A stretch of 41,357 bases of DNA from Gammaproteobacteria bacterium (GTDB taxonomy: Bacteria > Pseudomonadota > Gammaproteobacteria > AKS1), in the NCBI GenBank assembly GCA_027078075.1, contig JALTKP010000251.1:1-41357 (forward strand), given 5' to 3'. This document shows, piece by piece, positions 1-25,277 of the stretch. Positions within the stretch are counted from its first letter, which is position 1. Each line of letters begins with the position of its first letter. Below the pieces are notes generated by a model that was not told the DNA's origin, searched no databases, and worked only from the letters and a program-made list of their open reading frames with translations. A program made the translations under genes and the position numbers.

Positions 1-576
1 CCATCACTTGCTCCTGCAGGTAAAGCACTTTATCAACAAAACTGTATTTTTTGTCATCAGGCAGATGCTATCGGTAAACCAGGTTTTGCACCATCATTAA
101 CAAATCATGAATTCTTAAGTGTTGCATCAAATAAATTTATTTTGAGCACAATTAGGGATGGCCGAGCAGGAACTGGTATGCCTCCATTTTCCCACCTTGG
201 TAAGAAAGACATCGAATCTATTGTTGCTTACTTGCGAAGTTACGAAACATTACCAGAACGCGCTACAGAGATTGATGCACAACCAGCTGCGAAAGGTGAT
301 ATTGCACGAGGACAGGCAAGTTTCAATTTGATCTGTTTAAGTTGTCATGGCGAGAATGGTGATGGCTACGCCGCAGGTGGTACAGGTACCGCAATTGGTA
401 AAGCCGGATTCTTAGATAAGGTTTCAGATGGTTTTATTCGTACAACGATTAAAGAAGGTCGTACGAATACACGTATGCTTGGTTTTGGTAAAGAAGGACC
501 TCGTATCATGGCGGCACTATCTGATCAGGAAATTGATGACATCATCGTTTACCTGCGCACCGTACCAAGTAAATAA
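1..576 (+). CDS. Class I cytochrome c with at least two haems (c4/CcoP-like), 5'-truncated by the window edge
   Basis: Frame 1 is open from base 1: PSLAPAGKALYQQNCIFCHQ...GMPPF...GQASFNLICLSCHG...RMLGF...LSDQEIDDIIVYLR. It has two CxxCH motifs, each with a distal Met. The ORF track called only 142-576 and missed the first haem. Confidence 0.9.
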   Translation, partial: PSLAPAGKALYQQNCIFCHQADAIGKPGFAPSLTNHEFLSVASNKFILSTIRDGRAGTGMPPFSHLGKKDIESIVAYLRSYETLPERATEIDAQPAAKGDIARGQASFNLICLSCHGENGDGYAAGGTGTAIGKAGFLDKVSDGFIRTTIKEGRTNTRMLGFGKEGPRIMAALSDQEIDDIIVYLRTVPSK

Positions 577-590
577 AGGGGACACATAGA

Positions 591-3293
591 ATGAAACGTA
601 TCAAAATGAATCGTCGCGACTTCCTTAAAGGAAGTGCCTTTATTACGAGCACAGCAGCAGGTGCGAGTTTGATGGTTGGCAATAATCCAGAGCTTGAAGC
701 TGCACCTGCAACAGCAGCGAAAGCAACAACAACGCGCAAAACAGCAGTAGCACAATGCCCATACTGTGGTGTGGGTTGTGGCACTATCATTCAGGCTGAG
801 AATGGTAAAATTGTATCAATGCGCCCTGACAAAGATCATCCTACTAACTATGGTTTGCAATGTATTAAGGGTTTAACCGCAGCCGAACCTATTTACGTTG
901 ATCGCATGGAAGGCGACCCTTACGTACGTAAAGATGTTTGGGAAGAATGGAACAAGCCTGGCCACGGTGATATGGAATATATCAGTAAAACCAAAGGTTC
1001 TTTTGACGAAGAACACTTTGTTCGTGTTCCTTATCATGATGCATCGGAAATGACAGCGAAAAAGATTGCTCACTTTGCGAAGAAATACACTGGTAACTCG
1101 ATTGCATTGTATGGTTCTGGGCAGTTGACAGTTGAGGGACAGTATCTCGAAAATCTATTCATGAAAGGGGTACTTGGCTCAAATACAATCGAAGCCAACG
1201 CGCGTATGTGTATGACCTCTGCAGTAACAGGTTACTTCGCAACGTTGGGTTCTGATACGCCACCTTTAGCTTATGAGGATATTGAATTAGCGGATATGGT
1301 GATGCATTTTGGTCACAATGCACGTGAATCTCATCCTATTATCTATTGGCGTATTGCGGATCATAAGTTAAAAACTGATATTCCAACAGTTGTCGTTGAT
1401 CCACGTTACACCGGTACCGTTAAAGGTTATGAAGATATTAATAAAAAGAACTCGGTACACGTACCGATTCTAAATGGTGATATCAGTTTCCTAAATGCAA
1501 TTGCACATGTGTTATTGAAAGATCACCCAGATGTCATTGACTGGGATTTCCTCAAAGCACATACAACGGGTTGGAAAGAATACGTTGATGGTGTAACTAA
1601 TGATTACAGCCCTGAACAAGTGCAAGATCGTATGGGTGGACCTAACCATGAAGTACCACCTGAACTGATTCGCAGTATTGCATCAACATTTGCGGATGCA
1701 ACGCGCAAACGCTTAGTAAGAAGTAAAGGTAAGCACGAAGGTGAAGGTTACGGTGGCGTTATTATCATGTGGGGCATTGGTTACAACCAACACATCCATG
1801 GCCAACATAACGTTATCTCAATCATTAACTTGCTAACGTTAACCGGTAACCTTGCAAAACCTGGTTGTGGACCGTTCTCAATGACAGGTCAACCTAATGC
1901 GATGGGTGAACGTTTCACCGGTGGTTTAACTGGTCGTTTACCATTTAACCAACCATTGAAAAACACTGCACATCGTAAGCACATGGCGCGTCATTGGAAT
2001 GTGCCGGAAGCAAATTTGATTACAGCGATGAAGGCTAAAAATCCTGGTTATGCCATTGGTATGATGGAGCGAGCTTTAAAAGATGACGTGAAGGCTATGT
2101 TCTTTGTATATGCCACGCATATTGATTTACCGGATCAAGATAATCTGATTCGTCCGGCGATGATGAAAACATTCAACGTGGTTCAGGAAATTTATCGTCA
2201 TGCGCCGAACAACTTGTATGCAGATGTTATTTTCCCAGCGGCAACGTGGGGTGAAGTTGATGGTGTGTACATTAGTTCAGAACGTCGTATCAACCGAGTT
2301 GAAAAAGCGGCTGAGCCACCTAAAGGTTGTCTTCCAGATATGGATATGGTGATCGATAAAGGTAAAGAAATTGCACATTTATTAGGATTGGATGCAGATA
2401 AAATTTTCCCTTGGAATAAAAAGGAAGATGGTTTCTACGATGCTCAAGAAATCTTCCGTGCCATGGTTAGAGCGTCAGAGGGTACTGATACAGATCTAAC
2501 CGGTATTCTTGAAGTTGAAAAGATCGATGGTAAAACACCGTATGAACAATTACGTGATTTACGTGGTATTCAATGGCCTGCTCCTACCTACGAAACTGCG
2601 AAGGCAGGTGGTACAAAACGCCGTTTCATGTCACAGGAAGGTAAGTGGAAGAACAAACCTTACGGTTATTTCCGCACCAAAGATGGCAAAGTACATATGA
2701 AACTTTGTCAGCAGGATTATTCACAGCGTGAAGAGATCACCAAGAAGTTGATGGAATTTGGTAGCAAGAAAGGTGTCTACACAATTGATAATATTCCATT
2801 GTTGAAACAAGCTCGTGATATGGCTTTAACACCAGATATGCCGGATGAAGCAGAACGCGGTAAAAACTGGGATAAAGTCGCTAAAGATAAATATCCTTTC
2901 TGGTTGGGTCTGGGTGTGGTTTACGAGCATTTCCATACGGCTAAATCAAACCGTAGTCCAACAACTCGTCGTCTAGTACCTGAGATGTATGTAGAAATGC
3001 ATGCGGAAGATGCCAAGGAACTTGGTATTAAAGATGGTGATCAAGTGCGATTAGTGACACGACGCGGTTCGTACCAAGCAAAAGCGCAGGTAGGTTCGAA
3101 TAGCTTAGTCCGACCAGCACGTAATAGTGTACCTCGGGGTTACATGTTCAGCCCTTGGAACTTATCGGTAGCAGATAGTGCCGATCCGAAGAAGAACAAG
3201 TGGCTTGTAAATAGTACTTCGAGTCGTGTTTGGGATCTTGTTTCAGGGCAGGTAGATTTCAAGAAACTTGCTTGTCGTATTGAAAAAGTATAA
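591..3293 (+). CDS. Tat-exported Mo/W-bis-PGD oxidoreductase catalytic subunit, nitrate reductase (NapA/NasA/NarB) clade
   Basis: Tat signal RRDFLK plus h-region and AxA. N-terminal [4Fe-4S] motif CPYCGVGC...CIKG, Mo-ligand motif NARMCMTSA, GPFSMTGQPNAMG, and a C-terminal molydop-binding domain (VEMHAEDAKELGIKDGDQVRLVTRRG; DFKKLACRIEK). Confidence 0.9.
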   Translation: MKRIKMNRRDFLKGSAFITSTAAGASLMVGNNPELEAAPATAAKATTTRKTAVAQCPYCGVGCGTIIQAENGKIVSMRPDKDHPTNYGLQCIKGLTAAEPIYVDRMEGDPYVRKDVWEEWNKPGHGDMEYISKTKGSFDEEHFVRVPYHDASEMTAKKIAHFAKKYTGNSIALYGSGQLTVEGQYLENLFMKGVLGSNTIEANARMCMTSAVTGYFATLGSDTPPLAYEDIELADMVMHFGHNARESHPIIYWRIADHKLKTDIPTVVVDPRYTGTVKGYEDINKKNSVHVPILNGDISFLNAIAHVLLKDHPDVIDWDFLKAHTTGWKEYVDGVTNDYSPEQVQDRMGGPNHEVPPELIRSIASTFADATRKRLVRSKGKHEGEGYGGVIIMWGIGYNQHIHGQHNVISIINLLTLTGNLAKPGCGPFSMTGQPNAMGERFTGGLTGRLPFNQPLKNTAHRKHMARHWNVPEANLITAMKAKNPGYAIGMMERALKDDVKAMFFVYATHIDLPDQDNLIRPAMMKTFNVVQEIYRHAPNNLYADVIFPAATWGEVDGVYISSERRINRVEKAAEPPKGCLPDMDMVIDKGKEIAHLLGLDADKIFPWNKKEDGFYDAQEIFRAMVRASEGTDTDLTGILEVEKIDGKTPYEQLRDLRGIQWPAPTYETAKAGGTKRRFMSQEGKWKNKPYGYFRTKDGKVHMKLCQQDYSQREEITKKLMEFGSKKGVYTIDNIPLLKQARDMALTPDMPDEAERGKNWDKVAKDKYPFWLGLGVVYEHFHTAKSNRSPTTRRLVPEMYVEMHAEDAKELGIKDGDQVRLVTRRGSYQAKAQVGSNSLVRPARNSVPRGYMFSPWNLSVADSADPKKNKWLVNSTSSRVWDLVSGQVDFKKLACRIEKV

Positions 3294-3301
3294 AGGATGA
3301 A

Positions 3302-3353
3302 AGGCGTTAGGGTGAGAAGCGTGGTAGTAAGAAGCTTCTCACCCTTAACACCT
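3302..3353 (+). other. Intergenic stem-loop without a U-tract (candidate mRNA stability or processing element)
   Basis: AGGGTGAGAAGC (3309-3320) pairs perfectly with GCTTCTCACCCT (3334-3345), 13-nt loop; the stem extends further with a bulge. Confidence 0.6.
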
Positions 3354-3363
3354 AACAAAGATT

Positions 3364-3951
3364 ATGCAACGTAGAGCATTTCTTCAATCGTTAACTGCTA
3401 CAGCAGCATTGCTTGCGATGTCGCCGCATCTTGTGGCAAAGAGCCAAGCTTCGTTTCGATTTCTTCGTCCCCCAGGTGTGCTTGATGAAGAAGAGTTTTT
3501 ACAAAACTGTATACGCTGTGGTAAGTGTGGCGAAATATGTCCCAACCGAACGATTAAGTATTTTTCAACGGAGAATGGTGTTGATTCGATTGATACGCCA
3601 TATATCGTACCAAGAGAGCAAGCTTGTATATTGTGCATGAAGTGTGGTGATGTTTGCCCAACGGGAGCCATACAATCTATTCCTCGTGAGATGAATGCGA
3701 TTCTTGAAAAAGTTGAAATGGGAACCGCTCGTGTTGACCGAAGTTTGTGTTTGTCATGGCAGGGTAAAACATGTGGTGTCTGTTATCGAGCCTGCCCACT
3801 TCCTAATGTTGCAATACGCATAGGACGTTTAGAACAACCGCATGTATTAAATGATTGCGTAGGCTGTGGATTGTGCGAACGATCGTGTATTCAGATTCCA
3901 CAAGCGATCAGAATTATTCCGAGTAAAAGCCTTTCTAAAAAGAGCGGTTAG
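3364..3951 (+). CDS. napG: NapG/MauM-family periplasmic 4Fe-4S ferredoxin
   Basis: Tat motif RRAFL plus h-region; LRPPG; CIRCGKCGEICP, CILCMKCGDVCP, CLSWQGKTCGVCYRACP, CVGCGLCERSC. Confidence 0.8.
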   Translation: MQRRAFLQSLTATAALLAMSPHLVAKSQASFRFLRPPGVLDEEEFLQNCIRCGKCGEICPNRTIKYFSTENGVDSIDTPYIVPREQACILCMKCGDVCPTGAIQSIPREMNAILEKVEMGTARVDRSLCLSWQGKTCGVCYRACPLPNVAIRIGRLEQPHVLNDCVGCGLCERSCIQIPQAIRIIPSKSLSKKSG

Positions 3952-4042
3952 TACAATTAAGTTAATCGCAGCGTTGTGTATAGTTGTGTTCTATTAACGT
4001 GATAATTTTATATAAAATTAAGCAAATTGGAATTCGTAGATA

Positions 4043-5035
4043 ATGCAGAAGATAGTTGCTAAGCCATCATCACTCAGACATTTGAATAAGCTGCGTTGGT
4101 TTATTTTAACGTTAGTTTTTTCTATTTTAGTCTTGTTGCCATTTCTCCATCTCTATCAAACTTACGTGGCGGCACATGCATATGATTTATTATTGCCTAA
4201 CGAAAAGACAGTTTATGATGCAATGGAATGGTTAACATCTCCTTTTGTTAAAAATCCAGAACATGATTTAGATATGCTAAAAGGAACCACTTGGTCAGGT
4301 ACATTATTTGGCTTGAAGTTAAGTGATCCTCTCGCTGTATTGAGTCAGGTTGCGACATCATTATCATTGTATTGGCCGTTTTTGTTAACAGCTTTAATAC
4401 CGGTTGTTGCGACAATAATATTAGGACGTTTCTTTTGTGGATGGATTTGTCCTGCAACATTCATTTATGAGTTGAATGATACTGTTGCCGCATGGTTGCG
4501 CCGAGCAGGCGTTCCATTGGGCGATAAGATTTATGACAAAAGAATCAAGTATCTCGTTTTAACGGTAGGATTAATTTTATCGATGTTACTCGGTAGCATT
4601 ATGACGGCAGCAATTTATCCACCAGCAATAATAGGTCGTGAGTTGTACTACGTAATTGCACAGGGTGCATTTGGTAGTGGTGCAGTGTTTTTTATTCTTA
4701 CTATATTATTTGATTTGTTGGTTGCACGACGAGGATTTTGTCGATACATGTGCCCAGGTGGCGCGCTGTATTCACTGTTAGGTAGGTACCGTCTTTTACG
4801 GATTCAGCGTGTTGTTGAGCAATGCAATGACTGTAAAAAATGTAACGTAGTGTGTGAGTTTGGTCTTGATCCATTGCAAGATGGGTTTGGTCAGGAGTGC
4901 AATAACTGTACTGCGTGTATCGCGGTCTGCCCAACAGATGCACTTAAGTTCAAAATTCAAATTCATGATCAACCATTTCAAGGACCAGGACATCTCGGTC
5001 ACGCTTATCGTAATCAAAAGTCAGGAGATCAGTAA
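4043..5035 (+). CDS. napH: NapH/MauN-family quinol dehydrogenase membrane subunit
   Basis: LSDPLA, GRFFCGWICP, GFCRYMCPGGALYSLLG, two C-terminal 4Fe-4S motifs and several TM helices. Confidence 0.85.
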   Translation: MQKIVAKPSSLRHLNKLRWFILTLVFSILVLLPFLHLYQTYVAAHAYDLLLPNEKTVYDAMEWLTSPFVKNPEHDLDMLKGTTWSGTLFGLKLSDPLAVLSQVATSLSLYWPFLLTALIPVVATIILGRFFCGWICPATFIYELNDTVAAWLRRAGVPLGDKIYDKRIKYLVLTVGLILSMLLGSIMTAAIYPPAIIGRELYYVIAQGAFGSGAVFFILTILFDLLVARRGFCRYMCPGGALYSLLGRYRLLRIQRVVEQCNDCKKCNVVCEFGLDPLQDGFGQECNNCTACIAVCPTDALKFKIQIHDQPFQGPGHLGHAYRNQKSGDQ

Positions 5036-5664
5036 TGAAACGTCGCCGCTTTATACAAACAATTGGTGCTTATATGGCACTGGGCGTAGCGGCATCTTTA
5101 CCCTATGGGGTGGCACGATTGTTATCGCCACCTTTACATGCAGCAGAGCATGAGCATATTCCTTTACCAGGCGCTTTATCTGATCTGGACGCGTTTAATC
5201 GTGCTTGTATTGGCTGTGGATTGTGTGGCGAAGTTTGTCCACCTAAAGCCGTGAAGTTTAAACAACGCGATGGTGGCGAAGGGGTTAATACCCCCTATAT
5301 CGATCCTGCTAATAAAGCCTGTATTTTATGTAATAAATGTATGGAAGTGTGTCCAACAGATGCGTTGACAGTGATCCCGATAAGGGAGGTCGATATGGGA
5401 ACAGCACAGATTGATCGTGCGGCTTGTTACCCATGGGTAGATGAAGGAATTTGCGGTGCTTGTGTGGCTATTTGTCCACTGGGAGAGAAAGCGATTAGTT
5501 TCACTTTTGCGAATATTTATAAACCGGCAGTGAATGAAGGTTGTGTTGGCTGTGGACAATGCGTGGAGGTTTGTCCAGAGCCAAGTTTGCCTATCAGAAT
5601 TGTAAAACGTAGCGAAGGAACTATTGCGCGTCATGGTGTCGCAACGAGACGGCGTTCATATTAA
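5035..5664 (+). CDS. Second NapG/MauM-family Tat-exported 4Fe-4S ferredoxin
   Basis: RRRFI Tat motif plus h-region; PLPGA; four Cys clusters in the same order as 3364-3951; start overlaps the napH stop (TAATG). Confidence 0.8.
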   Translation: MKRRRFIQTIGAYMALGVAASLPYGVARLLSPPLHAAEHEHIPLPGALSDLDAFNRACIGCGLCGEVCPPKAVKFKQRDGGEGVNTPYIDPANKACILCNKCMEVCPTDALTVIPIREVDMGTAQIDRAACYPWVDEGICGACVAICPLGEKAISFTFANIYKPAVNEGCVGCGQCVEVCPEPSLPIRIVKRSEGTIARHGVATRRRSY

Positions 5665-5711
5665 AAGAAGTAAGCTTAGTTTTAGTAATTGAGTTTCAGG
5701 AGTTATGAGTT

Positions 5712-6293
5712 GTGAGATTGTCTCAGGTTTTTTTAGCAATGATTGTTTTTTTTTATGGCGTTGCAGCGGCGCAAGCTCATCACGTTTTAGGACGTCCATC
5801 ATATAGTCTTGGTGAAGATTCAAATACGCCACCTAGTATGCAGGTAGAAACACAGATTGGTGATTTCTATGTGACCTATATGGCATTTCCTGCTTTTCCT
5901 AAGCCTAATGAACAAGGGCGTGTTAATTTGTATGCTTCGCGCATTGATAATGGTTTGCCATTTGATGGTGAGGTAACGTTTAAAGTACGAGATGATAGTT
6001 GGTTTGCAAGTAAGGAAGAAATACTTGGTGTACAAAAGATAGATGACAATGTTTATCGTCAGGGATTTATTTTTAAAAGTGATGGTAGCTATATTGTTAC
6101 AGCTGAATTTGAATCGGGCGGTGAGCCTTATAAAATTGATTTTCCACTACAAATTGGTGAGCCTAGTTCCGTAGGTCCGATTGGCATTACTATTGGTGTT
6201 CTGATATTCGTTCTCATTATTGTCAATGTTTTGCAACGCAATCGTCGCTTTCAGCTTAAAGCACAAAGAGCACACCGAGCTAACAATCAATGA
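5712..6293 (+). CDS. Exported, C-terminally membrane-anchored hypothetical protein; predicted mature N-terminus His-His
   Basis: GTG start after AGGAG; signal peptide ending AQA then HHVLGRP; beta-rich body; C-terminal TM (IGITIGVLIFVLIIVNVL) and a basic tail. Confidence 0.75.
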   Translation: MRLSQVFLAMIVFFYGVAAAQAHHVLGRPSYSLGEDSNTPPSMQVETQIGDFYVTYMAFPAFPKPNEQGRVNLYASRIDNGLPFDGEVTFKVRDDSWFASKEEILGVQKIDDNVYRQGFIFKSDGSYIVTAEFESGGEPYKIDFPLQIGEPSSVGPIGITIGVLIFVLIIVNVLQRNRRFQLKAQRAHRANNQ

Positions 6294-7819
6294 TCATGAC
6301 ACACCCCGGTCTGCCAGATGCATGGTTATGGTTAGCGTTGGCCGTAATGTTTTTGGCATTGCTGAAAATTCTGAGTATTAAACCTAAGCTAACTAATAAA
6401 AGCCGTTATATTTCAGTTGAAAAAATTCCAGTTGTTGGCCAGATAGCGATTTTATTTTCAAAAAGTCCATGGCCACTAGTCATTTTGAAATTTGTATCTG
6501 TTGGGTTATTTTTAACAGTAATTGCCGCAGGTTTGTTTGGCACACCTATTCCGGAACGAAATTTAGCGACCACTTTGACTTGGACTGTATGGTGGTCGGG
6601 ACTGATTATTACGGTTTTTTTTCTAGGCTCGGCATGGTGTGCTGTATGTCCTTGGGACACGATTGCAAGTTGGCTAGTTAAACATCGTATGTGGAAGCGT
6701 GCGGATCCAAGTAGCAGCCTTGGGTTACGTATGCCTAAAATGTGGCGTAATACATGGCCTGCACTGATTATGTTTATTGGTTTAACTTGGCTTGAATTAG
6801 GGGTTGGTGTTACCACTAACCCTTATGCAACGGCTGTCTTATCATTAGTAATGATTGTTATGGCAACATCTTATATGGCTGTGTTTGAGGGTAAGCCTTT
6901 TTGTAAGTATGTTTGCCCCGTTGGCCGAACGGTTGGATTTTATTCTCAAGTATCGATGGTTGAGTTACGACCTAAAAAACAGGATATTTGTGCAGAGTGT
7001 AAAACACTGGAGTGTTATCACGGGACAGAAGAAATTGAACCATGCCCTACTCATCTGGTGATGGGAACCTTAACGCAAAGCACTTATTGTACTTCCTGTT
7101 CAGCTTGTACGATGAGCTGTCCTCATCAAAATGTAGCTTGGCGTCTACGTAGTCCAGCGAGTGAAGCAATTCAATATGCTCGACCACATTGGGATGAAGC
7201 ATGGTTTATGTTGGGCTTATTAGGCCTTACTACTTTTCACGGTATTACAATGATGGAGTTCTGGGAAAAGGGGCTATCTTCATTTGCACAAGTAATTGGT
7301 GACTCGGGGCAACTTATCTTGAGTTTTAGTTTGGGAATGGCAATCGTATTTGCTGCGCCTATCTTATTATATGCAGTCCTTATTAAAATAATGCAGTTAT
7401 TAATACCAATTAAAGTTTCTTTTAAGAAAGCATTTTCTACTTTAGCCTTTATTTCTTTGCCTCTCGCATTTGTTTATCACATTGCTCATAACTTAAATCA
7501 TTTGATTCGCGAGAGTCGAGGCTTTACGAATGTATTATTAAATCCACTTGGGCGGGATAGCTTACCGCTGAGTAGCAGTGAGTTACATATGCGTCATATG
7601 AACCCACTTATTTCTGAACAGCTACTTTATGCGTTGCAGGCAGGTTTAATGATTTTTGGTTTTTGGTTAGCACTACAAATCCTGCAAAAACGAACTTTGG
7701 ATATATTAAATAATCAATTTTATCGACGTTATTATTTATTGCCTGGTATCATTTTTATTATGAGTGTTACGGCTTTTAACTTGTGGTTGTTGGTACAACC
7801 AATGACGATGAGAATGTAA
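6290..7819 (+). CDS. Polytopic membrane 4Fe-4S protein (NapH/NosR/FixG-like superfamily)
   Basis: About ten hydrophobic segments; WCAVCPW and FCKYVCPVG (CxxxCP) motifs; CAECKTLEC...CP and CTSCSACTMSCP; ATGA overlap with the upstream gene. Confidence 0.8.
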   Translation: MIMTHPGLPDAWLWLALAVMFLALLKILSIKPKLTNKSRYISVEKIPVVGQIAILFSKSPWPLVILKFVSVGLFLTVIAAGLFGTPIPERNLATTLTWTVWWSGLIITVFFLGSAWCAVCPWDTIASWLVKHRMWKRADPSSSLGLRMPKMWRNTWPALIMFIGLTWLELGVGVTTNPYATAVLSLVMIVMATSYMAVFEGKPFCKYVCPVGRTVGFYSQVSMVELRPKKQDICAECKTLECYHGTEEIEPCPTHLVMGTLTQSTYCTSCSACTMSCPHQNVAWRLRSPASEAIQYARPHWDEAWFMLGLLGLTTFHGITMMEFWEKGLSSFAQVIGDSGQLILSFSLGMAIVFAAPILLYAVLIKIMQLLIPIKVSFKKAFSTLAFISLPLAFVYHIAHNLNHLIRESRGFTNVLLNPLGRDSLPLSSSELHMRHMNPLISEQLLYALQAGLMIFGFWLALQILQKRTLDILNNQFYRRYYLLPGIIFIMSVTAFNLWLLVQPMTMRM

Positions 7820-7828
7820 TGGGAGAAA

Positions 7829-8521
7829 ATGATGTCTGGTTTAAATAAACAAAAGTGTGAAACAAAAAGACAATGTTTGCGAGACTTGCTCTGTAAGTGG
7901 GTTGATCGCGCACCGATTATTTTTATGTTTGTCATGTTTGCATTGGGCATTATTTTTTGGGGTGGCTTTAATACTAGTATGGAAATGACAAACAATGAAG
8001 AATTTTGCATTAGTTGTCATGAAATGCGTAATAATGTTTACAAGGAATATAAAACAACTGTTCACTACACGAACCGAACCGGAGTGCGTGCAACTTGCCC
8101 TGATTGTCATGTGCCACGAGAATGGACTTATAAAGTTGCGCGCAAGGTAGCGGCGACTAATGAATTATATCATAAAGTCATCGGTTCAATTAATACAAAA
8201 GAAAAATTTGAATCTAAGCGCCTAGAACTGGCTGAGCATGTGTGGGATAGCATGAAAGCAACGGATTCACGCGAGTGCCGAAATTGTCACGCGAATGAGT
8301 TTATGAAATTAAACAGTCAAAGTAAATTATCTCAACGCAAACATGCTAGAGCGATTACTGATGGCTTAACGTGTATCGATTGTCATCGAGGGATTGCTCA
8401 TAAACTACCGAGAAACTTTGATGAGGATGGTAAGCTTCATGCCTCGTTCAAAAATACTAAACGTCCCTGTGGTGATTGTCATAAAAACCTGGCGCAATCA
8501 GATGATAAAATCACATGGTAG
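7829..8521 (+). CDS. napC: NapC/NirT-family membrane-anchored cytochrome c with a fifth CxxCH
   Basis: N-terminal TM with GIIFWGGFNT; TNNEEFCISCHEM, ATCPDCHVP, DSRECRNCH, TCIDCHRGIAH; an extra CGDCH near the C-terminus. Confidence 0.9.
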   Translation: MMSGLNKQKCETKRQCLRDLLCKWVDRAPIIFMFVMFALGIIFWGGFNTSMEMTNNEEFCISCHEMRNNVYKEYKTTVHYTNRTGVRATCPDCHVPREWTYKVARKVAATNELYHKVIGSINTKEKFESKRLELAEHVWDSMKATDSRECRNCHANEFMKLNSQSKLSQRKHARAITDGLTCIDCHRGIAHKLPRNFDEDGKLHASFKNTKRPCGDCHKNLAQSDDKITW

Positions 8522-9108
8522 ATGAAGTTGATCCAAGTCGACGTGCTTTCTTTCGACGTGCGGCCAGTAAAGCAGCAGAGAAAGTGGTTGAGCATGCGCA
8601 GACAAAAATAGAAGCACGTGCAACACGCTGGGTACGACCACCTTTTGCGGTGCCTGAATTGGAATTCATGTTGGCATGTACGCGTTGTGGCGACTGTATT
8701 GAAGCTTGCCCCCCTAAGGTGCTTTTTCCTTTAGCCGCAAGCTACGGCGCCGATGTGGCATCAACAGTTGCATTAGATGTTTTAAGCGGTGGTTGCCAGC
8801 TTTGTGAGGATTGGCCATGTGTGACAGCGTGTGAGGCAAATGCACTTAAGTTGCCAGAGACAGAAGAGGGCGAAAAAGTTTGGCCTAAAATGGCACAAGC
8901 ACGCATTATAAGTGATGAATGCCTCCCTTTTAGAGGGCCGGAGTGTGGAGCCTGTGCTGGTAGTTGTCCCATTGCTGAAACACTCACTTTTCAGCGGGAA
9001 AGACCCTACATTAACCCAGAGAATTGTGCCGGCTGTGGGCTTTGTTTAGCTGCCTGTATTGCTGAACCTAAGGCAATAAAGATGTCATCGCTTTATATTC
9101 AGGACTAA
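8515..9108 (+). CDS. napF: NapF-like (NapF/NapG family) ferredoxin, probably cytoplasmic
   Basis: DPSRRAFFRR with no hydrophobic h-region; VRPPFA; CTRCGDCIEACP and three further Cys clusters. Confidence 0.7.
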   Translation: MVDEVDPSRRAFFRRAASKAAEKVVEHAQTKIEARATRWVRPPFAVPELEFMLACTRCGDCIEACPPKVLFPLAASYGADVASTVALDVLSGGCQLCEDWPCVTACEANALKLPETEEGEKVWPKMAQARIISDECLPFRGPECGACAGSCPIAETLTFQRERPYINPENCAGCGLCLAACIAEPKAIKMSSLYIQD

Positions 9109-9597: not shown

Positions 9598-10446
9598 ATG
9601 TTCAACACCAACCCCTTTGATGCGCTAACAGCATTGATATCTACAGACATTATGCAGGGCTACATTTTTTTAATGGCTGCCCTAGTGTTCTTGGGTACAG
9701 TACTGGATATGATGCACAAGAAAAGTGCCAAATACTTTGCTCTAGATACGGCAAAAAATGATAAAAATGCTAAGCGTGCCGTAGGCGCTGGCGAAAAAGC
9801 TGGAATTGCAGTCGCAACACTAGCAAGCGAAGTGATCACTTCTAGTGAATTCTGCAACACGAAACGTAGAATTTCTCATCTTTTAACTATGTACGGTTTT
9901 ATTATCTTCGTTGCATCAACTGCACTGATGATTTTTGGTAACGGAGCAGAAATTTTGCCAGTACTTTGGCACACAGGCGCTATCATGCTTTGCCTTGGTG
10001 GTTACTGGTTCTGGTTCTCCATCCGCGTTGATGTGAATTCTGAAGGTATTAAGTGGTATCAATTACGTACTGCAGATATCTTTATTGTATCGCTTTTCAC
10101 AACAGCAACATTTGGATTAATCTGGTCTTACCTGCAGTCTTCAGGTATGGGCGCAGTCGCTGACATGGGCTGGACAACATTGTTCTTCGGTTTATTCATC
10201 TTTTCAAACACAATGCTTTTCGGTTCTGTATTTTGGTCTAAGTTTGCACACATGTTCTTCAAACCAGCTGCAGCATTCCAAAAACGTGTTGCTCATGCAG
10301 ACGGTGGACATTTGAATTTGCCTAGTGATTTCGATTTATCATCACCAGAAGTACACGCAAAATTCCCTGATATCCCGCAGTACATGGGTAAGAACCCAGT
10401 CAACATGGGTGCTGGTATCCGTCGCGAACCACCAAACCATTACTAA
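9598..10446 (+). CDS. aprM: Adenylylsulfate reductase membrane anchor AprM
   Basis: Multi-TM protein directly upstream of aprB; HKKSAKYF, RRISHLLTMYG, WSKFAHMFFKP, C-terminal GIRREPPNHY. Confidence 0.92.
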   Translation: MFNTNPFDALTALISTDIMQGYIFLMAALVFLGTVLDMMHKKSAKYFALDTAKNDKNAKRAVGAGEKAGIAVATLASEVITSSEFCNTKRRISHLLTMYGFIIFVASTALMIFGNGAEILPVLWHTGAIMLCLGGYWFWFSIRVDVNSEGIKWYQLRTADIFIVSLFTTATFGLIWSYLQSSGMGAVADMGWTTLFFGLFIFSNTMLFGSVFWSKFAHMFFKPAAAFQKRVAHADGGHLNLPSDFDLSSPEVHAKFPDIPQYMGKNPVNMGAGIRREPPNHY

Positions 10447-10477
10447 ATTTAACTATTAAAGTATAAGAGAAAATATT

Positions 10478-10960
10478 ATGCCTACTTTTGTATATATGAC
10501 TCGTTGTGATGGTTGTGGCCAGTGTGTAGATATCTGCCCATCAGACATCATGCACATCGACAAAACATTACGCCGTGCTTACAACATTGAACCAAACATG
10601 TGTTGGGAATGTTATTCATGCGTAAAAGCTTGCCCACATCACGCAATTGACGTGCGTGGCTATGCTGATTTCGCTCCATTAGGTTCTTCAGTTCGCGTAC
10701 ATCGTGATGAAGAAAAAGGCACCATTGCATGGCGCATCAAGTTCCGTAATGGTCAAAAAGACATGGAACTACTTGCACCAATCACAACTAAGCCTTGGGG
10801 TACTTGTATTCCAAAACTAGCTAACGAAGCAGCTCCTGCTGACACTATGCGTAATAGTGAATTGTTATTTAATGAGCCTAAGTATGTTGCGATGAATGAC
10901 AGTGCGTTACCTACACTGAAATCTAATAAGTTGTCGCTTAAAGAAGGGGTTTACTACTAA
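10478..10960 (+). CDS. aprB: Adenylylsulfate reductase beta subunit
   Basis: MPTFVYMTRCDGCGQCVDICPSDIMH...CWECYSCVKACP...VRGYADFAP. Confidence 0.97.
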   Translation: MPTFVYMTRCDGCGQCVDICPSDIMHIDKTLRRAYNIEPNMCWECYSCVKACPHHAIDVRGYADFAPLGSSVRVHRDEEKGTIAWRIKFRNGQKDMELLAPITTKPWGTCIPKLANEAAPADTMRNSELLFNEPKYVAMNDSALPTLKSNKLSLKEGVYY

Positions 10961-12825
10961 TGAGTTACAAGACAATTATTGAAGACGATATTGACGTCTT
11001 GGTCGTTGGTGCTGGTTTAGGCGGTACAGGCGCAGCATTTGAAGCAAGATACTGGGGCAAGAACAAGAAAATTGTTATTGCAGAAAAAGCTAACATCGAT
11101 CGTTCTGGTGCGGTAGCTCAGGGTCTTTACGCGATTAACTGTTACATGGGTACTCGCTTCGGTGAGAACAATCCTGAAGATCACGTACGTTATGCACGTA
11201 TGGATTTAATGGGCATGGTTCGTGAAGATTTAGCCTTTGATATGGCTCGCCACGTTGATTCAGCTGTACATCAGTTTGAAGAATGGGGTCTACCTATCAT
11301 GAAAGATGCCAAGACAGGCACCTACCTACGTGAAGGTCGCTGGCAGATTATGATTCACGGTGAATCATACAAGCCAATCGTTGCAGAAGCAGCGAAGAAC
11401 TCAGCTGATAAAGTATTCAACCGTATTTGTGTAACGCATTTATTGATGGATGACAGCAAAGACAACCGTATTGCTGGTGCAGTAGGCTTCAACGTACGTA
11501 CTGGTAACTACCACGTATTTAAGTCTAAGACTGTAATCTGTGGTGCTGGTGGTGCTTCTAACATCTTTAAACCACGTTCAGTGGGTGAAGGCGCAGGTCG
11601 TGTTTGGTATGCACCTTGGTCATCGGGTTCTGCTTACGGTCTTATGATCGAAGCTGGCGCGAAAATGACACAAATGGAAAACCGTATCGTACTAGCTCGA
11701 TTCAAAGATGGTTACGGTCCTGTTGGCGCATACTTCTTACACCTTAAAACATACACGCAAAACTGTTTAGGTGAAGAGTACGAATCAAAATGGTTCCCAG
11801 CTCTAACAGAGATGGTTGGTAAAGAGTATCTTGATACAGAAAACCAGCATTTATCTCACAAGCCAATTCCAACATGTTTGCGTAACCATGCATTCATTAA
11901 TGAAGTGAATGCGGGACGTGGTCCGATTCACATGATCACTATGGAAGCATTCCAAGATCCTCATTTAGAAGAAATTGGCTGGCATAACTTCTTAGGTATG
12001 ACAGTTGGTCAAGCGGTTCTTTGGGCGGCAACTGACGTTAACCCTAAATACGAAAACCCTGAATTAACAACTTCTGAGCCATATGTTATGGGTTCACATG
12101 CAACAGGTTGTGGTGCATGGTGTTCAGGTCCTGAAGATGTTTCTCCTGATGAATACTTCTGGGGTTACAACCGTATGACGACTGTTGAAGGTCTGTTCGG
12201 TGCCGGTGATGCTGTTGGTGGTACACCACACGCATTTTCATCAGGTTCTTTCACTGAAGGTCGTTTAGCTGCTAAAGCTGCTTGTAAATACATTGATGAC
12301 GGTAAAGCTGCTGGTATCATGGTTTCTGATAAGCAGATTGCTGACCGTAAGGCAGAAATCTACAAGCCAATGGAAACATACACAGTTGGCCGTAACGAAA
12401 TCGTTGCTGGTTCTGTTAACCCTAACTACATCAACCCACGTCAGGGTCTTGATCGTCTACAAAAGATGATGGATGAGTACTGTGGTGGTTTCGGTGTTAA
12501 CTACATGACTAACGAAAAGCTTCTTCAAATTGGTCTTAAGAAGATGGCTACTCTTGGCGAAGATTTAGAAAAAGTAGCTGCTGAAGATATCCATGAACTA
12601 CTACGTGCATGGGAATTGAAGCATCGTTTCCTTACTTCTGAAAGTGTATTCCAACATACATTATTCCGTAAAGAAACACGCTGGCCTGGTTACTACTACC
12701 GTGGTGATGCGATGAAGTTAGATGATAAAGACTGGCATGTATTGACAGTTTCTCATCGTGATCGTAAAACTGGTGCGTACACCATGGAAAAAGCGCCTCT
12801 TTATCACTTAGTTGATGATGAATAG
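10960..12825 (+). CDS. aprA: Adenylylsulfate reductase alpha subunit (flavoprotein)
   Basis: GAGLGG FAD motif, EKANIDRSGAVAQGLYAIN, WQIMIHGESYK, ARFKDGYGPVGA, ETRWPGYYYR. Confidence 0.98.
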   Translation: MSYKTIIEDDIDVLVVGAGLGGTGAAFEARYWGKNKKIVIAEKANIDRSGAVAQGLYAINCYMGTRFGENNPEDHVRYARMDLMGMVREDLAFDMARHVDSAVHQFEEWGLPIMKDAKTGTYLREGRWQIMIHGESYKPIVAEAAKNSADKVFNRICVTHLLMDDSKDNRIAGAVGFNVRTGNYHVFKSKTVICGAGGASNIFKPRSVGEGAGRVWYAPWSSGSAYGLMIEAGAKMTQMENRIVLARFKDGYGPVGAYFLHLKTYTQNCLGEEYESKWFPALTEMVGKEYLDTENQHLSHKPIPTCLRNHAFINEVNAGRGPIHMITMEAFQDPHLEEIGWHNFLGMTVGQAVLWAATDVNPKYENPELTTSEPYVMGSHATGCGAWCSGPEDVSPDEYFWGYNRMTTVEGLFGAGDAVGGTPHAFSSGSFTEGRLAAKAACKYIDDGKAAGIMVSDKQIADRKAEIYKPMETYTVGRNEIVAGSVNPNYINPRQGLDRLQKMMDEYCGGFGVNYMTNEKLLQIGLKKMATLGEDLEKVAAEDIHELLRAWELKHRFLTSESVFQHTLFRKETRWPGYYYRGDAMKLDDKDWHVLTVSHRDRKTGAYTMEKAPLYHLVDDE

Positions 12826-16435: not shown

Positions 16436-18067
16436 TTAAACTTTGAAACCACCAACTAAGTTTTGTAAGTGAGCGGCAAGCTCAGATAAGTTGTTACTTG
16501 ATTGTGCCGTTTGTTGTGCACTTTGAGCTGAGTTTTCACTGATATCATTAATGGTTGTAACATTGCGATTGATATCTTCAGCAACTGTGCTTTGTTCAGT
16601 CGCGGCGGTGGCAATCTGAGTATTCATTTCGTTGATAGTACTGACAGCAGTAGCAATATTAACAAGAGAAGAATCTGCTTCGGATGCTTGAGAAACAGCT
16701 TCCTGCGCTTTCTCCTTACTTTTGTTCATAACACTTACTGCATTGCGAGCACCTGCTTGTAAACGTTCAATCATAGTTTGAATTTCTTCTGTTGATGATT
16801 GGGTTCTACTTGCGAGTGTCCGAACTTCATCAGCAACAACAGCAAAGCCACGACCTTGTTCACCTGCACGAGCAGCTTCAATAGCCGCATTAAGGGCTAA
16901 TAAGTTAGTTTGTTCTGCGATCCCCTTGATAACATCAAGAACTTTACCAATATTTTCGCTATCTTCAGATACGGTATCAATTGCGTGTGATGCGCCTTCA
17001 ATATCAGAAGAAAGAGCATCGATTGATTGGACTGTAGCTTTAACAATATTTTTACCATTGCTCGTATCTTGGTCGGCAGAGAGTGCAGCTTCAGCAGCGT
17101 TAGTAGCACTTCGGGCAACTTCTTGTACCGTAGCTGTCATTTGATGCATAGCTGTGGCAGCTTGCGTTGTTTCCATACGCTGAGTATCAGCACTGATAGA
17201 AAGCTCGCTGCCTGCAGTTTGTAGTAACTGAGATTCATTATTTAAGCTAGCAACATCCTGAACAATATTAGAGATGATGCCTTGAAGCTTAGTAATAAAT
17301 ATATTTACTGCATCACATAATTGACTAATTTCATCGTCATTTGGCGTTGGTAGACGTCGAGTTAGATCACCATTACCGTCAGCAAGCTCAAACATAAGAT
17401 CGGTTGTCGCCTCAAGCCTAGAGACAACAAGCTTTTTAAATAATAGATAAACAACAAATGAGATGATAAGTAGAGTAATAATGACAGAAAGAGTGCTAAC
17501 AGTAATAAAGTGTGTAAAAGAATCACTAGCAATGTTTTGTACATTGTCTATAGCATGTTTGATTCTATTATCACTATTCAGGATTCCTTTATTAACATTA
17601 ACTTTCGACATGCCTAGTAGGACATGCCCAATAAGATCACCATCAGAATTAATTTCAAATTTATACTCAATAATATCAGAGGTACTATTGGGCTTTGTAA
17701 ATTCAGTAAGATTTGAACTGTCTGGTTTTAAATAGGCCGCATAGGAAACATCAGGATCTTTTTGTGCGCTTTCTTGGTATTCCTGTAGGCTTGTAAAATC
17801 GTAAGACATAATAAGGTCAGGCGCTGTTTTAGCCATAAATCGACCTAGGCTGTTAGCTTTAGATGAGAGCGCTTCTAGAGCTGCTTTTGCTGCACTTGAT
17901 TGTTCTGACTTTAAAGCATCCTCAGCAAGTTGAACTTGATTGTCAGTTGAACTACGAACTCCCTGTACATGGATATAAGCAGCAATTGAGAGTGATACCA
18001 CCATACTAACTAATATAGGGGCAAGAAACTTACCCATTAATGAAATGTTTTTAATGTCATATTTCAT
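16436..18067 (-). CDS. Methyl-accepting chemotaxis protein
   Basis: Two TM segments, HAMP (GDLTRRL...DEISQL), signalling motif [37 protein letters not shown]. Confidence 0.95.
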
Positions 18068-18136
18068 TTTGATTGCCTGCTAAGTAATTTAAATTATTAT
18101 ATAAACATAAAAGCCATCCATGGCATTAGTAAAATG

Positions 18137-18985
18137 TTACAAGTCTTCACCAGTTACTGATTTGACAATTTCACGTACTTTAGCAAAATCAGAATCAGAA
18201 GCTTTTATAAAATTGGTCACTTTAGCTGCTTTAAGAACACCAGGTGCCGTAGTTTTAAGAGAAGTCATGATTGATTGAATTTTGTCAGCCTTTGCTTGAG
18301 GCATATCAGCTTTAACAGCCCAAGTTAGGTGAATGAATGGTTCACTTTCAACAACAATTTTCATCTGTGACACATCAATTTTTTTGGTAACACCTTTTAC
18401 TTTTAGAATTACGTTACCGGCACCAGCTGCATCAGCTGCCTTGTTGTAAACACCAATCACTGCACTAGGTGGGTTTTTAGAGAATTTGACCGTGTAATCT
18501 TTACCCGCAACAAGACCCGCTTTCATTAGTGCTGAAGTTGGTGCAATGAAACTTCCCATTGCTTTTTTGCCACCTCCAAAGAGGATTGTTTTACCTTTGA
18601 GGTCTGCAACTGAATTAATGCCACTGTCTTTGCGTACTGACAAAGAGCCAGCTAATGTACTGGTGTTAAATTCTTCATTAACAGCAATAACTTTATAGCC
18701 TTTTTCTTTATGATTTAGCAGATAATGATATTGGTTGTAATGCACAAGATCATATTTACCTGTTTTTGCGCCTTTCCAGAATTCTTTGAAATTCTTGGCA
18801 ACAACTAATTTAACAGGCTCACCTAATTCTTTAGATAATTTTTCAGCAAGTGGTTTAAAGAATTTATGGGTTTTAGCAACAGGTCGTCGTGGAAATACAC
18901 CCATCGAGAGATCTGCAAGTGCAGCTGTCGATGTTAGTAACATAGTCGATGACATGGCAAGTATAGGTAATAATTTATTGTTCAT
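18137..18985 (-). CDS. PhnD/SsuA-like periplasmic substrate-binding protein
   Basis: Signal peptide; FKPLAEKLSKELGEPV, VRKDSGINSVADLKGK, GSFIAP, FIKASDSDF. Confidence 0.85.
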   Translation of the reverse strand: MNNKLLPILAMSSTMLLTSTAALADLSMGVFPRRPVAKTHKFFKPLAEKLSKELGEPVKLVVAKNFKEFWKGAKTGKYDLVHYNQYHYLLNHKEKGYKVIAVNEEFNTSTLAGSLSVRKDSGINSVADLKGKTILFGGGKKAMGSFIAPTSALMKAGLVAGKDYTVKFSKNPPSAVIGVYNKAADAAGAGNVILKVKGVTKKIDVSQMKIVVESEPFIHLTWAVKADMPQAKADKIQSIMTSLKTTAPGVLKAAKVTNFIKASDSDFAKVREIVKSVTGEDL

Positions 18986-21882: not shown

Positions 21883-22536
21883 TCAACTACTAAATATTGG
21901 TTCAAGCCTCTCAAGATCATTGATTACCTGCCATTCACCACCACCAGACTCTACTTTATTACGCCAGTCTTCTAATCGATCTAGGTACTCAACAGGGTCT
22001 ATATTGTCACTACGTAGTTTGGTTACATTGATAGCAATAACACGATAGCCTTCAAGATTAAGAGGGATGTCTCGGTTATAACCAGTTTGAATTTCTTCTT
22101 TAAGATCTGAAAATATGAGGATTGTTTTTATGCCTGATTTTGCCTCATTCATGTACTCAACAGCTTGTAACATGCCACCGGTAATATCGGTGTAAGCACT
22201 GGGCCTAACTTCATCAATAAATTTGTTAATACCTTCTCTAAATAAACGCTTTTGTTGATTAGCCATACTAGGTCGATCTTCAAAAGTTTGTTTTTGAACA
22301 ATGTCTTTTTCACTAAAACTACCGGTATCGACACGCGCCACTACAAAGGTGTCACCAGGATTCAGTTTAGCAAGCGTAAAATTAATAATCCGTTGCGCTT
22401 GTGCAAGTTCTCTGGTGTAGGTGCCAGATGTATCCACTAACATATAAACCCCTTTTGAATAGGAGGCCTGTTCTGAGCAGCCCAGTAACAGTAATGCAAT
22501 CGTTAATGATAATAATCTTGAGATTAATTTGATCAT
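21883..22536 (-). CDS. VWA-domain lipoprotein
   Basis: Lipobox LLGC; MIDAS motif DTSGT; TDITGG; ILIFSD. Confidence 0.8.
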   Translation of the reverse strand: MIKLISRLLSLTIALLLLGCSEQASYSKGVYMLVDTSGTYTRELAQAQRIINFTLAKLNPGDTFVVARVDTGSFSEKDIVQKQTFEDRPSMANQQKRLFREGINKFIDEVRPSAYTDITGGMLQAVEYMNEAKSGIKTILIFSDLKEEIQTGYNRDIPLNLEGYRVIAINVTKLRSDNIDPVEYLDRLEDWRNKVESGGGEWQVINDLERLEPIFSS

Positions 22537-22548
22537 AATGTTAGTCCT

Positions 22549-23988: not shown

Positions 23989-24130
23989 ACAGACCTCCTC
24001 GTCAACACACTATTGTGTTCTGTCTTGATGTTGAGAGAAGTATGTGGAGTCTGTATAAACTAAACTGTCTAATAGGTCACAGTTTATCTGGGGCTAGTTC
24101 ACGAAATAGAATATTTTTTTATTGTTAAGA

Positions 24131-24898: not shown

Positions 24899-24899
24899 T

Positions 24900-25277
24900 T
24901 CATTCCTTCATTAAGGTGGTTTGCATTTCGGCAGTCGATACCGGTAATTGTAAGATAGCATGAAGTGGGAATAATTCTTCTAATTTTGATGCAAATTGTC
25001 GCTCTTCTTTACTAACAAGAATAATAACCTTGGTGTTAAGCGAATATTTTGGCAGGCTGTGTAACATAACATCCAAGTTACTAATATTAACGCCAGCATA
25101 GTTATTACCATAGCCATAGAAGAACTCGGCAACAATAAAATCAGGTTTCTGTTTAAGACTATTAATTGTTTTGCGTAAAGAATTAAAACGTGTTTCGGCT
25201 AAATTCATTGAGGCATAAAGCGCTGAGAAATCAGGATGCATTGAGGATTCAATAATTGAGAAAATCTTCTTTGGCAT
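24900..25277 (-). CDS. Hypothetical protein, possibly a degenerate receiver fold
   Basis: 125-aa ORF in an apparent operon with the DAHP synthase gene; KPDFIVAEF and TKVIILVS. Confidence 0.7.
   Translation of the reverse strand: MPKKIFSIIESSMHPDFSALYASMNLAETRFNSLRKTINSLKQKPDFIVAEFFYGYGNNYAGVNISNLDVMLHSLPKYSLNTKVIILVSKEERQFASKLEELFPLHAILQLPVSTAEMQTTLMKE

What the first reader, a model, noticed from the sequence alone, without database searches (positions are those of the whole stretch)
1..9108. Non-canonical periplasmic molybdoenzyme respiratory system: NasA/NarB-like catalytic subunit wired to Nap-type electron-transfer modules
Seen: nine co-oriented, mostly tightly coupled genes: cytochrome c, Tat-Mo enzyme, NapG-like, NapH, second NapG-like, His-His exported protein, polytopic Fe-S protein, five-haem NapC and NapF-like. 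Established: canonical gammaproteobacterial nap is napFDAGHBC, with a NapB partner and a NapD chaperone. Neither is in the window, the gene order differs and there are extra components. Inference: this may be an independently assembled periplasmic oxyanion reductase (nitrate or another substrate) in which a class I cytochrome c replaces NapB. It is the best candidate for an undescribed system here.
Basis: partly seen in the sequence, partly recalled or inferred. Interest (0 to 1): 0.85.

Follow-up and report, generated by a model that had tools for sequence, protein, structure and literature searches.

The report
Unnamed third nitrate-reductase-type respiratory operon
This nine-gene cluster encodes an exported molybdenum enzyme that forms its own widespread branch beside the known soluble nitrate reductases, lacks their usual helper proteins, and likely lets the cell use nitrate (or a still unidentified oxidant) when oxygen runs low, a capacity that curated gene models do not name.

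Summary
Nine co-oriented genes encode a dihaem cytochrome c, a Tat-exported Cys-ligated Mo enzyme, NapG, NapH, a second NapG, a His-His membrane-anchored protein, a polytopic Fe-S protein, a five-haem NapC and NapF. The overlapping upstream contig holds a perfect FNR box, fnr and moaA, but no napB or napD; a closed same-genus genome lacks NapD, NapA and NarG altogether.

The enzyme is neither NapA nor NasA/NarB. It is 28-33% identical to both and forms its own supported clade inside the Nap/Nas radiation, apart from FDH and AioA/IdrA. The operon is conserved across Proteobacteria (72-96% identity; FNR box in 39 of 67 loci).

Nitrate is the best guess (about 60%): the Cys-Met and funnel Arg are kept, all characterised neighbours reduce nitrate, and NarX/NarL genes adjoin 6 loci. 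Against it: invariant active-site changes, frequent coexistence with NapA, and no association with nitrite reductases in a 44-genome control. The His-His/Fe-S pair is fused in deep members and resembles copper-handling modules.

I found no paper on it. This scan already reported the same system on seven other genomes.

The parts
1..576 (+). Dihaem class I cytochrome c (CcoP/c4-like; two CxxCH, two invariant Met as likely axial ligands). The 5' end lies in overlapping contig C202, with a lipoprotein-type leader and an FNR box upstream.
   Evidence: directly upstream of the enzyme in 74 of 75 loci
591..3293 (+). 900-aa Tat-exported Mo/W-bis-PGD catalytic subunit, an own clade within the Nap/Nas radiation. 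[4Fe-4S] Cys56/59/63/91 + Lys93; predicted Mo ligand Cys207 followed by Met208; funnel Arg441.
3364..3951 (+). NapG/MauM-like polyferredoxin with twin-arginine leader
   Evidence: PRK09476 135.6 bits, cut-off 269; 48 of 48 loci
4043..5035 (+). NapH/MauN-like membrane Fe-S quinol dehydrogenase subunit
   Evidence: PRK09477 152 bits, cut-off 234; 48 of 48 loci
5035..5664 (+). Second NapG-like polyferredoxin (optional gene)
   Evidence: 30 of 48 loci
5712..6293 (+). Exported protein of no known family: signal peptide, invariant N-terminal His-His and Met, Ig-like beta-sandwich, C-terminal membrane helix; predicted metal (copper-type) binder
   Evidence: 48 of 48 loci; fused to the next gene in L184 and L186
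6290..7819 (+). Polytopic NapH/CcoG-like Fe-S membrane protein with conserved Cys, His and C-terminal Met residues
   Evidence: 40 of 48 loci
7829..8521 (+). NapC/NirT-family membrane cytochrome with five CxxCH; position in the operon varies
   Evidence: 32 of 48 loci
8515..9108 (+). NapF-like ferredoxin
   Evidence: 45 of 48 loci

Best explanation
The operon encodes a Tat-signal molybdoenzyme of its own lineage that likely works as a low-oxygen-induced periplasmic nitrate-to-nitrite reductase. Inferred steps: FNR switches the operon on as oxygen falls. NapH with one or two NapG proteins, and optionally the NapC-type cytochrome, oxidise quinol. Electrons pass to the membrane-tethered dihaem cytochrome, which would take the place of NapB, then to the enzyme's [4Fe-4S] cluster and the Cys-ligated Mo centre, where an oxygen atom is removed from nitrate. 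The role is likely respiration or redox balancing at oxic-anoxic interfaces, often alongside a canonical Nap. The NapF-like protein and the His-His/polytopic Fe-S pair likely serve maturation or metal supply in place of NapD. Shown: gene content, motifs, fold, tree position, FNR-box conservation, and no NapB/NapD found. Inferred: electron path, direction, substrate and accessory roles.
For: Fold: AlphaFold model pLDDT 86.9; best match D. desulfuricans Nap 2nap, Z 45.0, rmsd 2.3 over 697 residues. Active site: Cys-Met as in nitrate reductases (FDH has Cys/Sec-His), with the Asp155 and Arg354 equivalents kept; the RMCMTSA and GERFTGG motifs occur in 78 of 78 family sequences (the funnel role of these residues is recalled). 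Tree: the family is one clade (SH-aLRT 100) inside a Nap+Nas group (99; 96 for family+NapA+NasA/NarB-type), with FDH and AioA/IdrA outside. PMC10100899 (passages) lists only nitrate for NasC/NasA/NarB and NapA. Regulation: FNR box with at most 1 mismatch upstream in 39 of 67 loci versus 1.6 in shuffles, perfect in 22 versus 0.07. A NarX/NarQ-type sensor is divergently adjacent in 6 loci (L038, L040, L050, L053, L058, L078), with a NarL-type regulator beside it in those long enough that I read. In L010 a nirS cluster lies directly upstream on the same strand. Closed genome G052 has the operon plus nirS, norCB and nosZ, but no NapA, NarG, NapD or NrfA match.
Against: No activity, mutant or expression data were found. 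Family-invariant changes near the site: Arg-Phe instead of Arg-Asp/Glu with a Glu before the Arg, Ile for Met308, Thr for Ala142, and loss of the domain-IV Arg. 26 of 50 carrier genomes also have canonical NapA, several two or three copies. Of the 20 of 50 with neither NapA nor NarG, only 3 had a cd1 or NirK match and none NrfA (mostly incomplete MAGs). Control in one order (44 genomes): cd1 nitrite-reductase family in 9 of 21 carriers versus 15 of 23 non-carriers; of 10 cd1-positive genomes without NapA/NarG only 2 carry the enzyme. So the G052 'missing step' argument is weak. G052 also has two cytoplasmic NasA-like enzymes, one next to a DmsB/DmsC-like fusion. G056 (91% complete) has nirS without this enzyme. 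Five of the six NarX-adjacent loci have sensors 55-60% identical to each other and are probably kin.
Confidence: 0.6

Rival explanations
1. The same wiring, but the physiological acceptor is not nitrate: another high-potential oxyanion or N-O/S-O compound met at marine oxic-anoxic interfaces (for example chlorate, bromate, iodate or selenate).
For: Invariant active-site substitutions and a long stem branch (0.51-0.74) from all Nap/Nas; coexistence with one to three canonical NapA in about half of carriers; presence unrelated to NapA (8 of 21 carriers vs 8 of 23 non-carriers) and not enriched with nitrite reductases; a dedicated accessory pair that Nap lacks.
Against: It nests among nitrate reductases and keeps Cys-Met and the Arg. 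NarX/NarL and nir neighbours occur in some loci. For iodate, 9 of 52 genomes searched already carry a separate IdrA-like gene and the enzyme does not group with AioA/IdrA. No substrate-specific neighbour recurs in 80 loci.
Confidence: 0.28
2. The enzyme runs as an oxidase or dehydrogenase (nitrite, formate or a sulfur compound), passing electrons to the dihaem cytochrome and on to a terminal oxidase.
For: The partner cytochrome resembles CcoP and QcrC, proteins on the oxidising side of chains (recalled). The best NCBIfam score, Fdh-alpha 328.8, ties with NapA 327.3. In this genus the operon sits beside aprMBA.
Against: It lacks the FDH Cys/Sec-His motif and falls outside the FDH clade. NapGH and NapC are quinol-oxidising modules of reductases (recalled). 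Heterotrophic Shewanella, Photobacterium and Ruegeria carry it, and apr adjacency is not general.
Confidence: 0.07
3. It is simply a divergent ordinary NapA of the NapB-independent (Desulfovibrio/Firmicutes) type, already covered by known Nap biology.
For: Best PDB sequence and fold match is D. desulfuricans NapA. NapB-less napGHCAD systems are described (PMC12780646, passages). A sister relation of the family to NapA is not rejected (p-AU 0.168).
Against: It lies outside the NapA clade (99-100 support), which includes the Selenomonas and Flammeovirga NapB-less forms (45-50% to other NapA, versus 28-33% for this enzyme). NapA model scores are 310-327 against cut-offs of 904-931. Those NapB-less systems keep NapD.
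Confidence: 0.05

Closest known systems
Periplasmic nitrate reductase Nap, NapB-independent types (D. desulfuricans NapA, PDB 2nap; Sporomusa ovata napGHCAD, PMC12780646; Selenomonas napD-G-H-C-A)
   Same: Tat-exported Cys-ligated Mo-bis-PGD enzyme with one [4Fe-4S] cluster; same fold (Z 45.0); Cys-Met, Asp155 and Arg354 equivalents; NapG/NapH/NapC modules; no NapB.
   Different: Only 30-33% identical and outside the NapA clade; 900 aa versus about 720-760; no NapD; a class I dihaem cytochrome, a second NapG, and the His-His plus polytopic Fe-S pair; Arg-Phe for Arg-Asp/Glu; no domain-IV Arg.
Enterobacterial/Cupriavidus NapAB (napFDAGHBC, napEDABC)
   Same: NapF, NapG, NapH and NapC homologues; FNR-type control; periplasmic location.
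   Different: No NapB or NapD; 30-31% identity; fails NCBIfam NapA cut-offs; often coexists with it in one genome (26 of 50).
Assimilatory nitrate reductases NasA/NasC/NarB
   Same: Same radiation; Cys-Met; GQPNAMG motif before the Arg.
   Different: Has a Tat leader and quinol-linked partners; 31-32% identity; NasC model 223 versus cut-off 1100; this genome has a separate NasA-like gene with narK-nirBD.
Copper/iron-handling modules: H. pylori CrdA, P19/FetP/FtrA with a polyferredoxin partner, CcoG/CcoH (comparison for genes 6-7 only)
   Same: Ig-like periplasmic domain (CrdA Z 11.9, rmsd 2.3, 104 residues; HftA Z 10.0; FtrA Z 9.3) paired with a membrane polyferredoxin; His and Met conserved.
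   Different: 14-15% identity; unrelated Ig-like folds score nearly as high (Z 9-10.5); metal binding is untested; no copper enzyme is evident in the operon.

Membership tests
DMSO-reductase (MopB) superfamily, Nap/Nas/FDH branch | Mo-bis-PGD domains plus N-terminal [4Fe-4S] motif and overall fold | tested here: met
   PF00384, PF04879 and PF01568 over cut-off; model matches 2nap at Z 45.0
Nap/Nas nitrate-reductase radiation | Cys Mo ligand followed by Met, funnel Arg, tree position with Nap and Nas | tested here: met
   Cys207-Met208 and Arg441 in 78 of 78 sequences; trees
Nap/Nas nitrate-reductase radiation | Reduces nitrate to nitrite | not testable with these tools
   No assay or paper found; genomic context is mixed
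NapA | Twin-arginine export signal | tested here: met
   RRDFL at residues 8-12; RRxF motif in 75 of 78 family ORFs
NapA | Passes curated NapA models | tested here: not met
   PRK13532 327.3 vs 904; TIGR01706 310.4 vs 930.55
NapA | Nests within the NapA clade | tested here: not met
   NapA clade supported at 99-100 excludes the family; sister position not rejected, p-AU 0.168
Nap system | NapD chaperone gene | tested here: not met
   No match in G000 (80% complete), in closed G052, or in 79 of 80 loci, while 23 of 26 canonical napA loci gave a NapB or NapD hit
NapAB system | NapB dihaem partner | tested here: not met
   No PF03892 match in G000; found in 1 of 80 loci, in an adjacent canonical operon; the cytochrome here is PF00034/PF13442
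Nap system | Quinol dehydrogenase module NapGH and/or NapC | tested here: met
   Best hits are NapG, NapH and NapC models, all below equivalog cut-offs; PF03264 passes its cut-off
NasA/NasC/NarB | Cytoplasmic enzyme without export signal, with nirBD/narK or ferredoxin partners; curated model pass | tested here: not met
   Tat leader present; NasC 222.9 vs 1100 and haloarchaeal NasA 273.3 vs 1000; separate clade
Formate dehydrogenase (FdhF/FdhA) | Cys/Sec followed by His; FDH clade | tested here: not met
   Cys-Met; outside the FDH group
AioA/IdrA | No protein ligand to Mo, Rieske subunit, AioA/IdrA clade | tested here: not met
   Cys at the ligand position; no Rieske gene in the operon; TIGR02693 92.1 vs 359; separate clade
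Copper-binding periplasmic proteins (CrdA, P19/FtrA) for gene 6 | Ig-like fold with His/Met copper site | tested here: inconclusive
   Top fold hits are CrdA and P19-like, but close to generic Ig-like folds; His1, His2 and Met35 invariant in 46 sequences; metal binding not testable

The most novel reading that the evidence does not exclude
A widespread, low-oxygen-induced respiratory reductase for an electron acceptor not yet tied to any enzyme. It descends from the nitrate reductases but has a re-tuned active site, is fed by its own dihaem cytochrome, and is matured by a dedicated copper-handling His-His/polyferredoxin pair, which would be a first for this enzyme family.
Probability: 0.22. 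Interest if true: 0.88.

Novelty: new variant of a known kind. Interest (0 to 1): 0.62.

Why it matters
If it reduces nitrate, it is a third soluble nitrate-reductase lineage and a second periplasmic type. It occurs in many marine and sediment Proteobacteria (21 of 44 genomes in one order), and databases label it 'anaerobic selenocysteine-containing dehydrogenase', 'assimilatory nitrate reductase' or 'hypothetical'. Nitrogen-cycle inventories built on napA and narG models would then undercount nitrate respirers, including denitrifiers that seem to lack the first step, such as G052. If the acceptor is something else, it is a new respiration. It is directly testable: cultured, named carriers include Photobacterium profundum SS9 and 3TCK and several deep-sea Shewanella.

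Tried and rejected
Complex prediction of the enzyme (residues 5-820 of alignment A1) with the cytochrome gave no answer, score 0.01; this is no evidence either way.

No RNA holder was listed for the gene. The protein atlas gave no result for the His-His protein. Pfam on 46 His-His homologues gave no consistent family. The profile comparison of His-His with the fused L186 domain was weak (probability 5.4%, E 0.007); the L184 fusion scored E 1.3e-6 in a small set. The sigma-70 and terminator scan was at chance level.

A metagenome scan with deep member P0123 found nothing; the alignment scan returned 7 family loci among 80 kept. Neighbour clustering over 80 loci showed fnr, moaA, narX and response regulators but no substrate-specific gene.

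The 'missing first step' argument from G052 was weakened by my own control.

Literature leads that did not bear: Microaerobacter geothermalis carries a deep homologue but also Nar (PMC9119079, whole text). The S. piezotolerans WP3 napA double mutant cannot use nitrate (PMC6308320, passages), but WP3 was not among the named cluster members, so I cannot tell whether it has the operon. P. profundum papers PMC4019646 (passages) and PMC3669370 (passages and 2 supplements) gave no mention under the locus tags I estimated. PMC10305379, PMC6783814, PMC5520029 and PMC11427306 (passages) describe canonical or unspecified nap/nar. The original Sulfuriflexus mobilis description and one Nap review were not held.

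Nine paper searches found no description. The library lacks most subscription journals.

Rows left out of trees: representatives under 640 aa, 2 rows without a full domain match, and, in the IQ-TREE runs, the long-branch degenerate rows P0127, P0187, P0203 and P0226.

Full report
Observation. The nine ORFs are present as described, all on the + strand, with gaps of 14, 70, 91, -1, 47, -4, 9 and -4 nt. Pfam and NCBIfam give: a cytochrome c with two haem domains; a molybdopterin oxidoreductase with Fe4S4 and binding domains; NapG-like, NapH-like and a second NapG-like protein; one protein with no hit; a Fer4_5 membrane protein; NapC/NirT; and a NapF/NapG-like ferredoxin. The NapC has five CxxCH. 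The window begins at a contig edge. Contig C202 overlaps it by 127 nt and carries the cytochrome start with a lipoprotein-type leader, a perfect FNR consensus box, an fnr gene and, on the other strand, moaA.

The rest of the genome. G000 (80% complete) gave no NapB or NapD match, no NapA over cut-off and no NarG. Its other Mo-family genes are a NasA-like enzyme with narK and nirBD, NuoG, an ActB-like protein and a SoeA-like protein (the last two names are my recognition from sequence). The closed same-genus genome G052 has the same operon next to aprMBA and no NapD match, so the system can do without NapD.

Distribution. A GTDB scan confirmed 452 of 471 candidate stretches and kept 80 loci at 72-96% identity, from Gamma-, Alpha-, Beta- and Zetaproteobacteria. 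In 48 loci with enough flank, NapG, NapH and the His-His gene were in 48, the cytochrome in 47, NapF in 45, the polytopic protein in 40, NapC in 32 (position variable) and the second NapG in 30. NapB or NapD hits occurred in 1 of 80 loci, from an adjacent canonical operon, versus 23 of 26 canonical napA loci. Deeper members exist at 41-65% identity: a deltaproteobacterial cluster, Microaerobacter geothermalis and metagenomic loci L184 and L186. Sources name these proteins generically or wrongly.

What the enzyme is. It scores 327 on the NapA model (cut-off 904), 223 on NasC (1100) and 329 on Fdh-alpha (666). Identity is 28-33% to NapA types and 31-32% to NasA types, which are themselves 27-36% identical to each other. 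The AlphaFold model (pLDDT 86.9, pTM 0.88) best matches D. desulfuricans Nap, Z 45.0. A FastTree of 144 rows and IQ-TREE runs of 57 and 42 rows give the family as one clade (SH-aLRT 100 in IQ-TREE), outside the NapA clade (99-100) but within the Nap/Nas radiation, with FDH and AioA/IdrA outside. The branching among family, NapA and NasA/NarB-type is unresolved, and a sister relation to NapA is not rejected (p-AU 0.168). These were quick searches without bootstraps. Wells et al. (PMC10100899, passages) treat NasC/NasA and NapA as one nitrate-reducing family, and the passages I read do not single out this clade.

Active site. Kept: the four Fe-S cysteines and Lys93, Cys207-Met208, and the equivalents of Asp155 and Arg354 of D. 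desulfuricans Nap (numbering; their roles are recalled). Changed and invariant in 78 of 78 sequences: Glu-Arg-Phe in place of x-Arg-Asp/Glu, Ile for Met308, Thr for Ala142, and Val or Ile for the domain-IV Arg, with a new conserved Lys after the second His. The site is nitrate-reductase-like but re-tuned.

Regulation and context. An FNR box with at most one mismatch lies upstream of the first gene in 39 of 67 loci (1.6 expected from base shuffles), and is perfect in 22 (0.07 expected); kin are not independent. A NarX/NarQ-type sensor is divergently adjacent in 6 loci, five of them probably related. In L010 a nir cluster is directly upstream. G052 has nirS, norCB and nosZ without NapA, NarG or NrfA.

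Evidence against a simple nitrate story. Of 50 carrier genomes (of the 80 loci), 26 have canonical NapA over cut-off and one more a fragment. Of 51, 8 have a NarG match and 16 a cd1 match, and 15 of those 16 also have NapA or NarG. Of the 20 carriers with neither, 3 had a cd1 or NirK match and none NrfA. In an order-level control of 44 genomes, 21 carry the enzyme (4 as partial hits). NapA is in 8 of 21 carriers and 8 of 23 others; cd1 is in 9 of 21 and 15 of 23; and of 10 cd1-positive genomes lacking NapA and NarG only 2 are carriers. The enzyme does not generally fill a gap in denitrification. G052 also has two NasA-like enzymes, one beside a DmsB/DmsC-like fusion that could supply nitrite. 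Most of these genomes are incomplete. IdrA-like genes occur separately in 9 of 52 genomes searched and AioA in 2.

Accessory genes. The cytochrome has invariant Met60 and Met159 and resembles CcoP and QcrC, not NapB; its role as the enzyme's donor is inferred from position (74 of 75 loci). The His-His protein has invariant His1, His2 and Met35 after the signal peptide, an Ig-like sandwich plus membrane helix (pLDDT 88.5), and best fold matches to the copper protein CrdA (Z 11.9) and the P19/HftA/FtrA group (Z 9.3-10.0), only modestly above generic Ig-like folds. The polytopic protein keeps eight Cys, four His and three Met in at least 95% of 51 sequences. In L184 and L186 a His-His-led domain is fused to it (sequence support modest). 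I read the pair as one metal-handling or maturation unit, possibly for copper; this is inference.

Mechanism and rivals. Most likely (0.6): an FNR-induced periplasmic nitrate reductase fed from quinol through NapGH or NapC and the dihaem cytochrome, used for respiration or redox balance. Rivals: another high-potential acceptor (0.28), the oxidative direction (0.07), ordinary NapA (0.05).

Novelty. It works like Nap but fails NapA membership on model score, tree position, NapB and NapD. Nine paper searches found no description, within a library that lacks most subscription journals. This scan's earlier notes report the same system on seven other genomes; I treated them as leads and tested the claims here. 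Verdict: a new variant of a known kind, with the substrate open; interest 0.62.

Noticed in passing
window 9598-12825: aprM-aprB-aprA (APS reductase, sulfur-oxidiser type; AprA 1069.7 bits vs cut-off 641.75) follows the operon, and the same adjacency is kept in G052.
   Followed up: partly
L170:7166-16007 (G052) and G000 C271:4258-11218: A narK-nirB-nirD-nasA-like cluster. In G052 it is followed by a 619-aa DmsB/DmsC-like Fe-S plus membrane-anchor fusion, suggesting a quinol-linked cytoplasmic nitrate reductase rather than a plain assimilatory one; in G000 the contig ends after the nasA-like gene.
   Followed up: partly
proteins P0187, P0203, P0226: 930-960 aa relatives with twin-arginine leaders that group with this family on a long branch but lack the Mo-ligand Cys and part of the Fe-S motif: possibly catalytically dead derivatives.
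   Followed up: partly
L184:6502-9912 and L186:10092-12641: In deep members the His-His domain and the polytopic Fe-S protein are fused, with two CxxCxxxxCxxxH repeats in the linker.
   Followed up: partly
G023, G024, G061: G061 has two full-length copies of the enzyme; G023 and G024 show family-like matches beyond or at the known locus, G024 on two contigs.
   Followed up: no
L031:948-3620 (G016): An IdrA-like iodate-reductase gene lies about 6 kb upstream of the operon in one alphaproteobacterial genome.
   Followed up: no
L053:1728-6338: A P19-like protein, an FTR1-like permease and a polyferredoxin (an ftr-type iron uptake cluster; names recognised from sequence) lie just upstream of the narXL pair and the operon; the polyferredoxin is a weak homologue of gene 7.
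   Followed up: no
window 21883-25277: Four consecutive minus-strand ORFs (217, 479, 255, 125 aa) with no Pfam match at E 0.001 (three of them rescanned).
   Followed up: no
window 16436-18985 and 29166-35140: Two modules pairing a phosphonate-type periplasmic binding protein with a chemoreceptor or with histidine kinases and response regulators.
   Followed up: no
G000 C202:3-3599: Upstream of the operon: fnr, moaA, an inorganic pyrophosphatase-like gene and a ferredoxin-reductase-like gene. In G052 a globin-like gene and an Rrf2/NsrR-like gene follow, and four extra genes, including a GMC-type oxidoreductase-like one, are inserted between fnr and the cytochrome.
   Followed up: no
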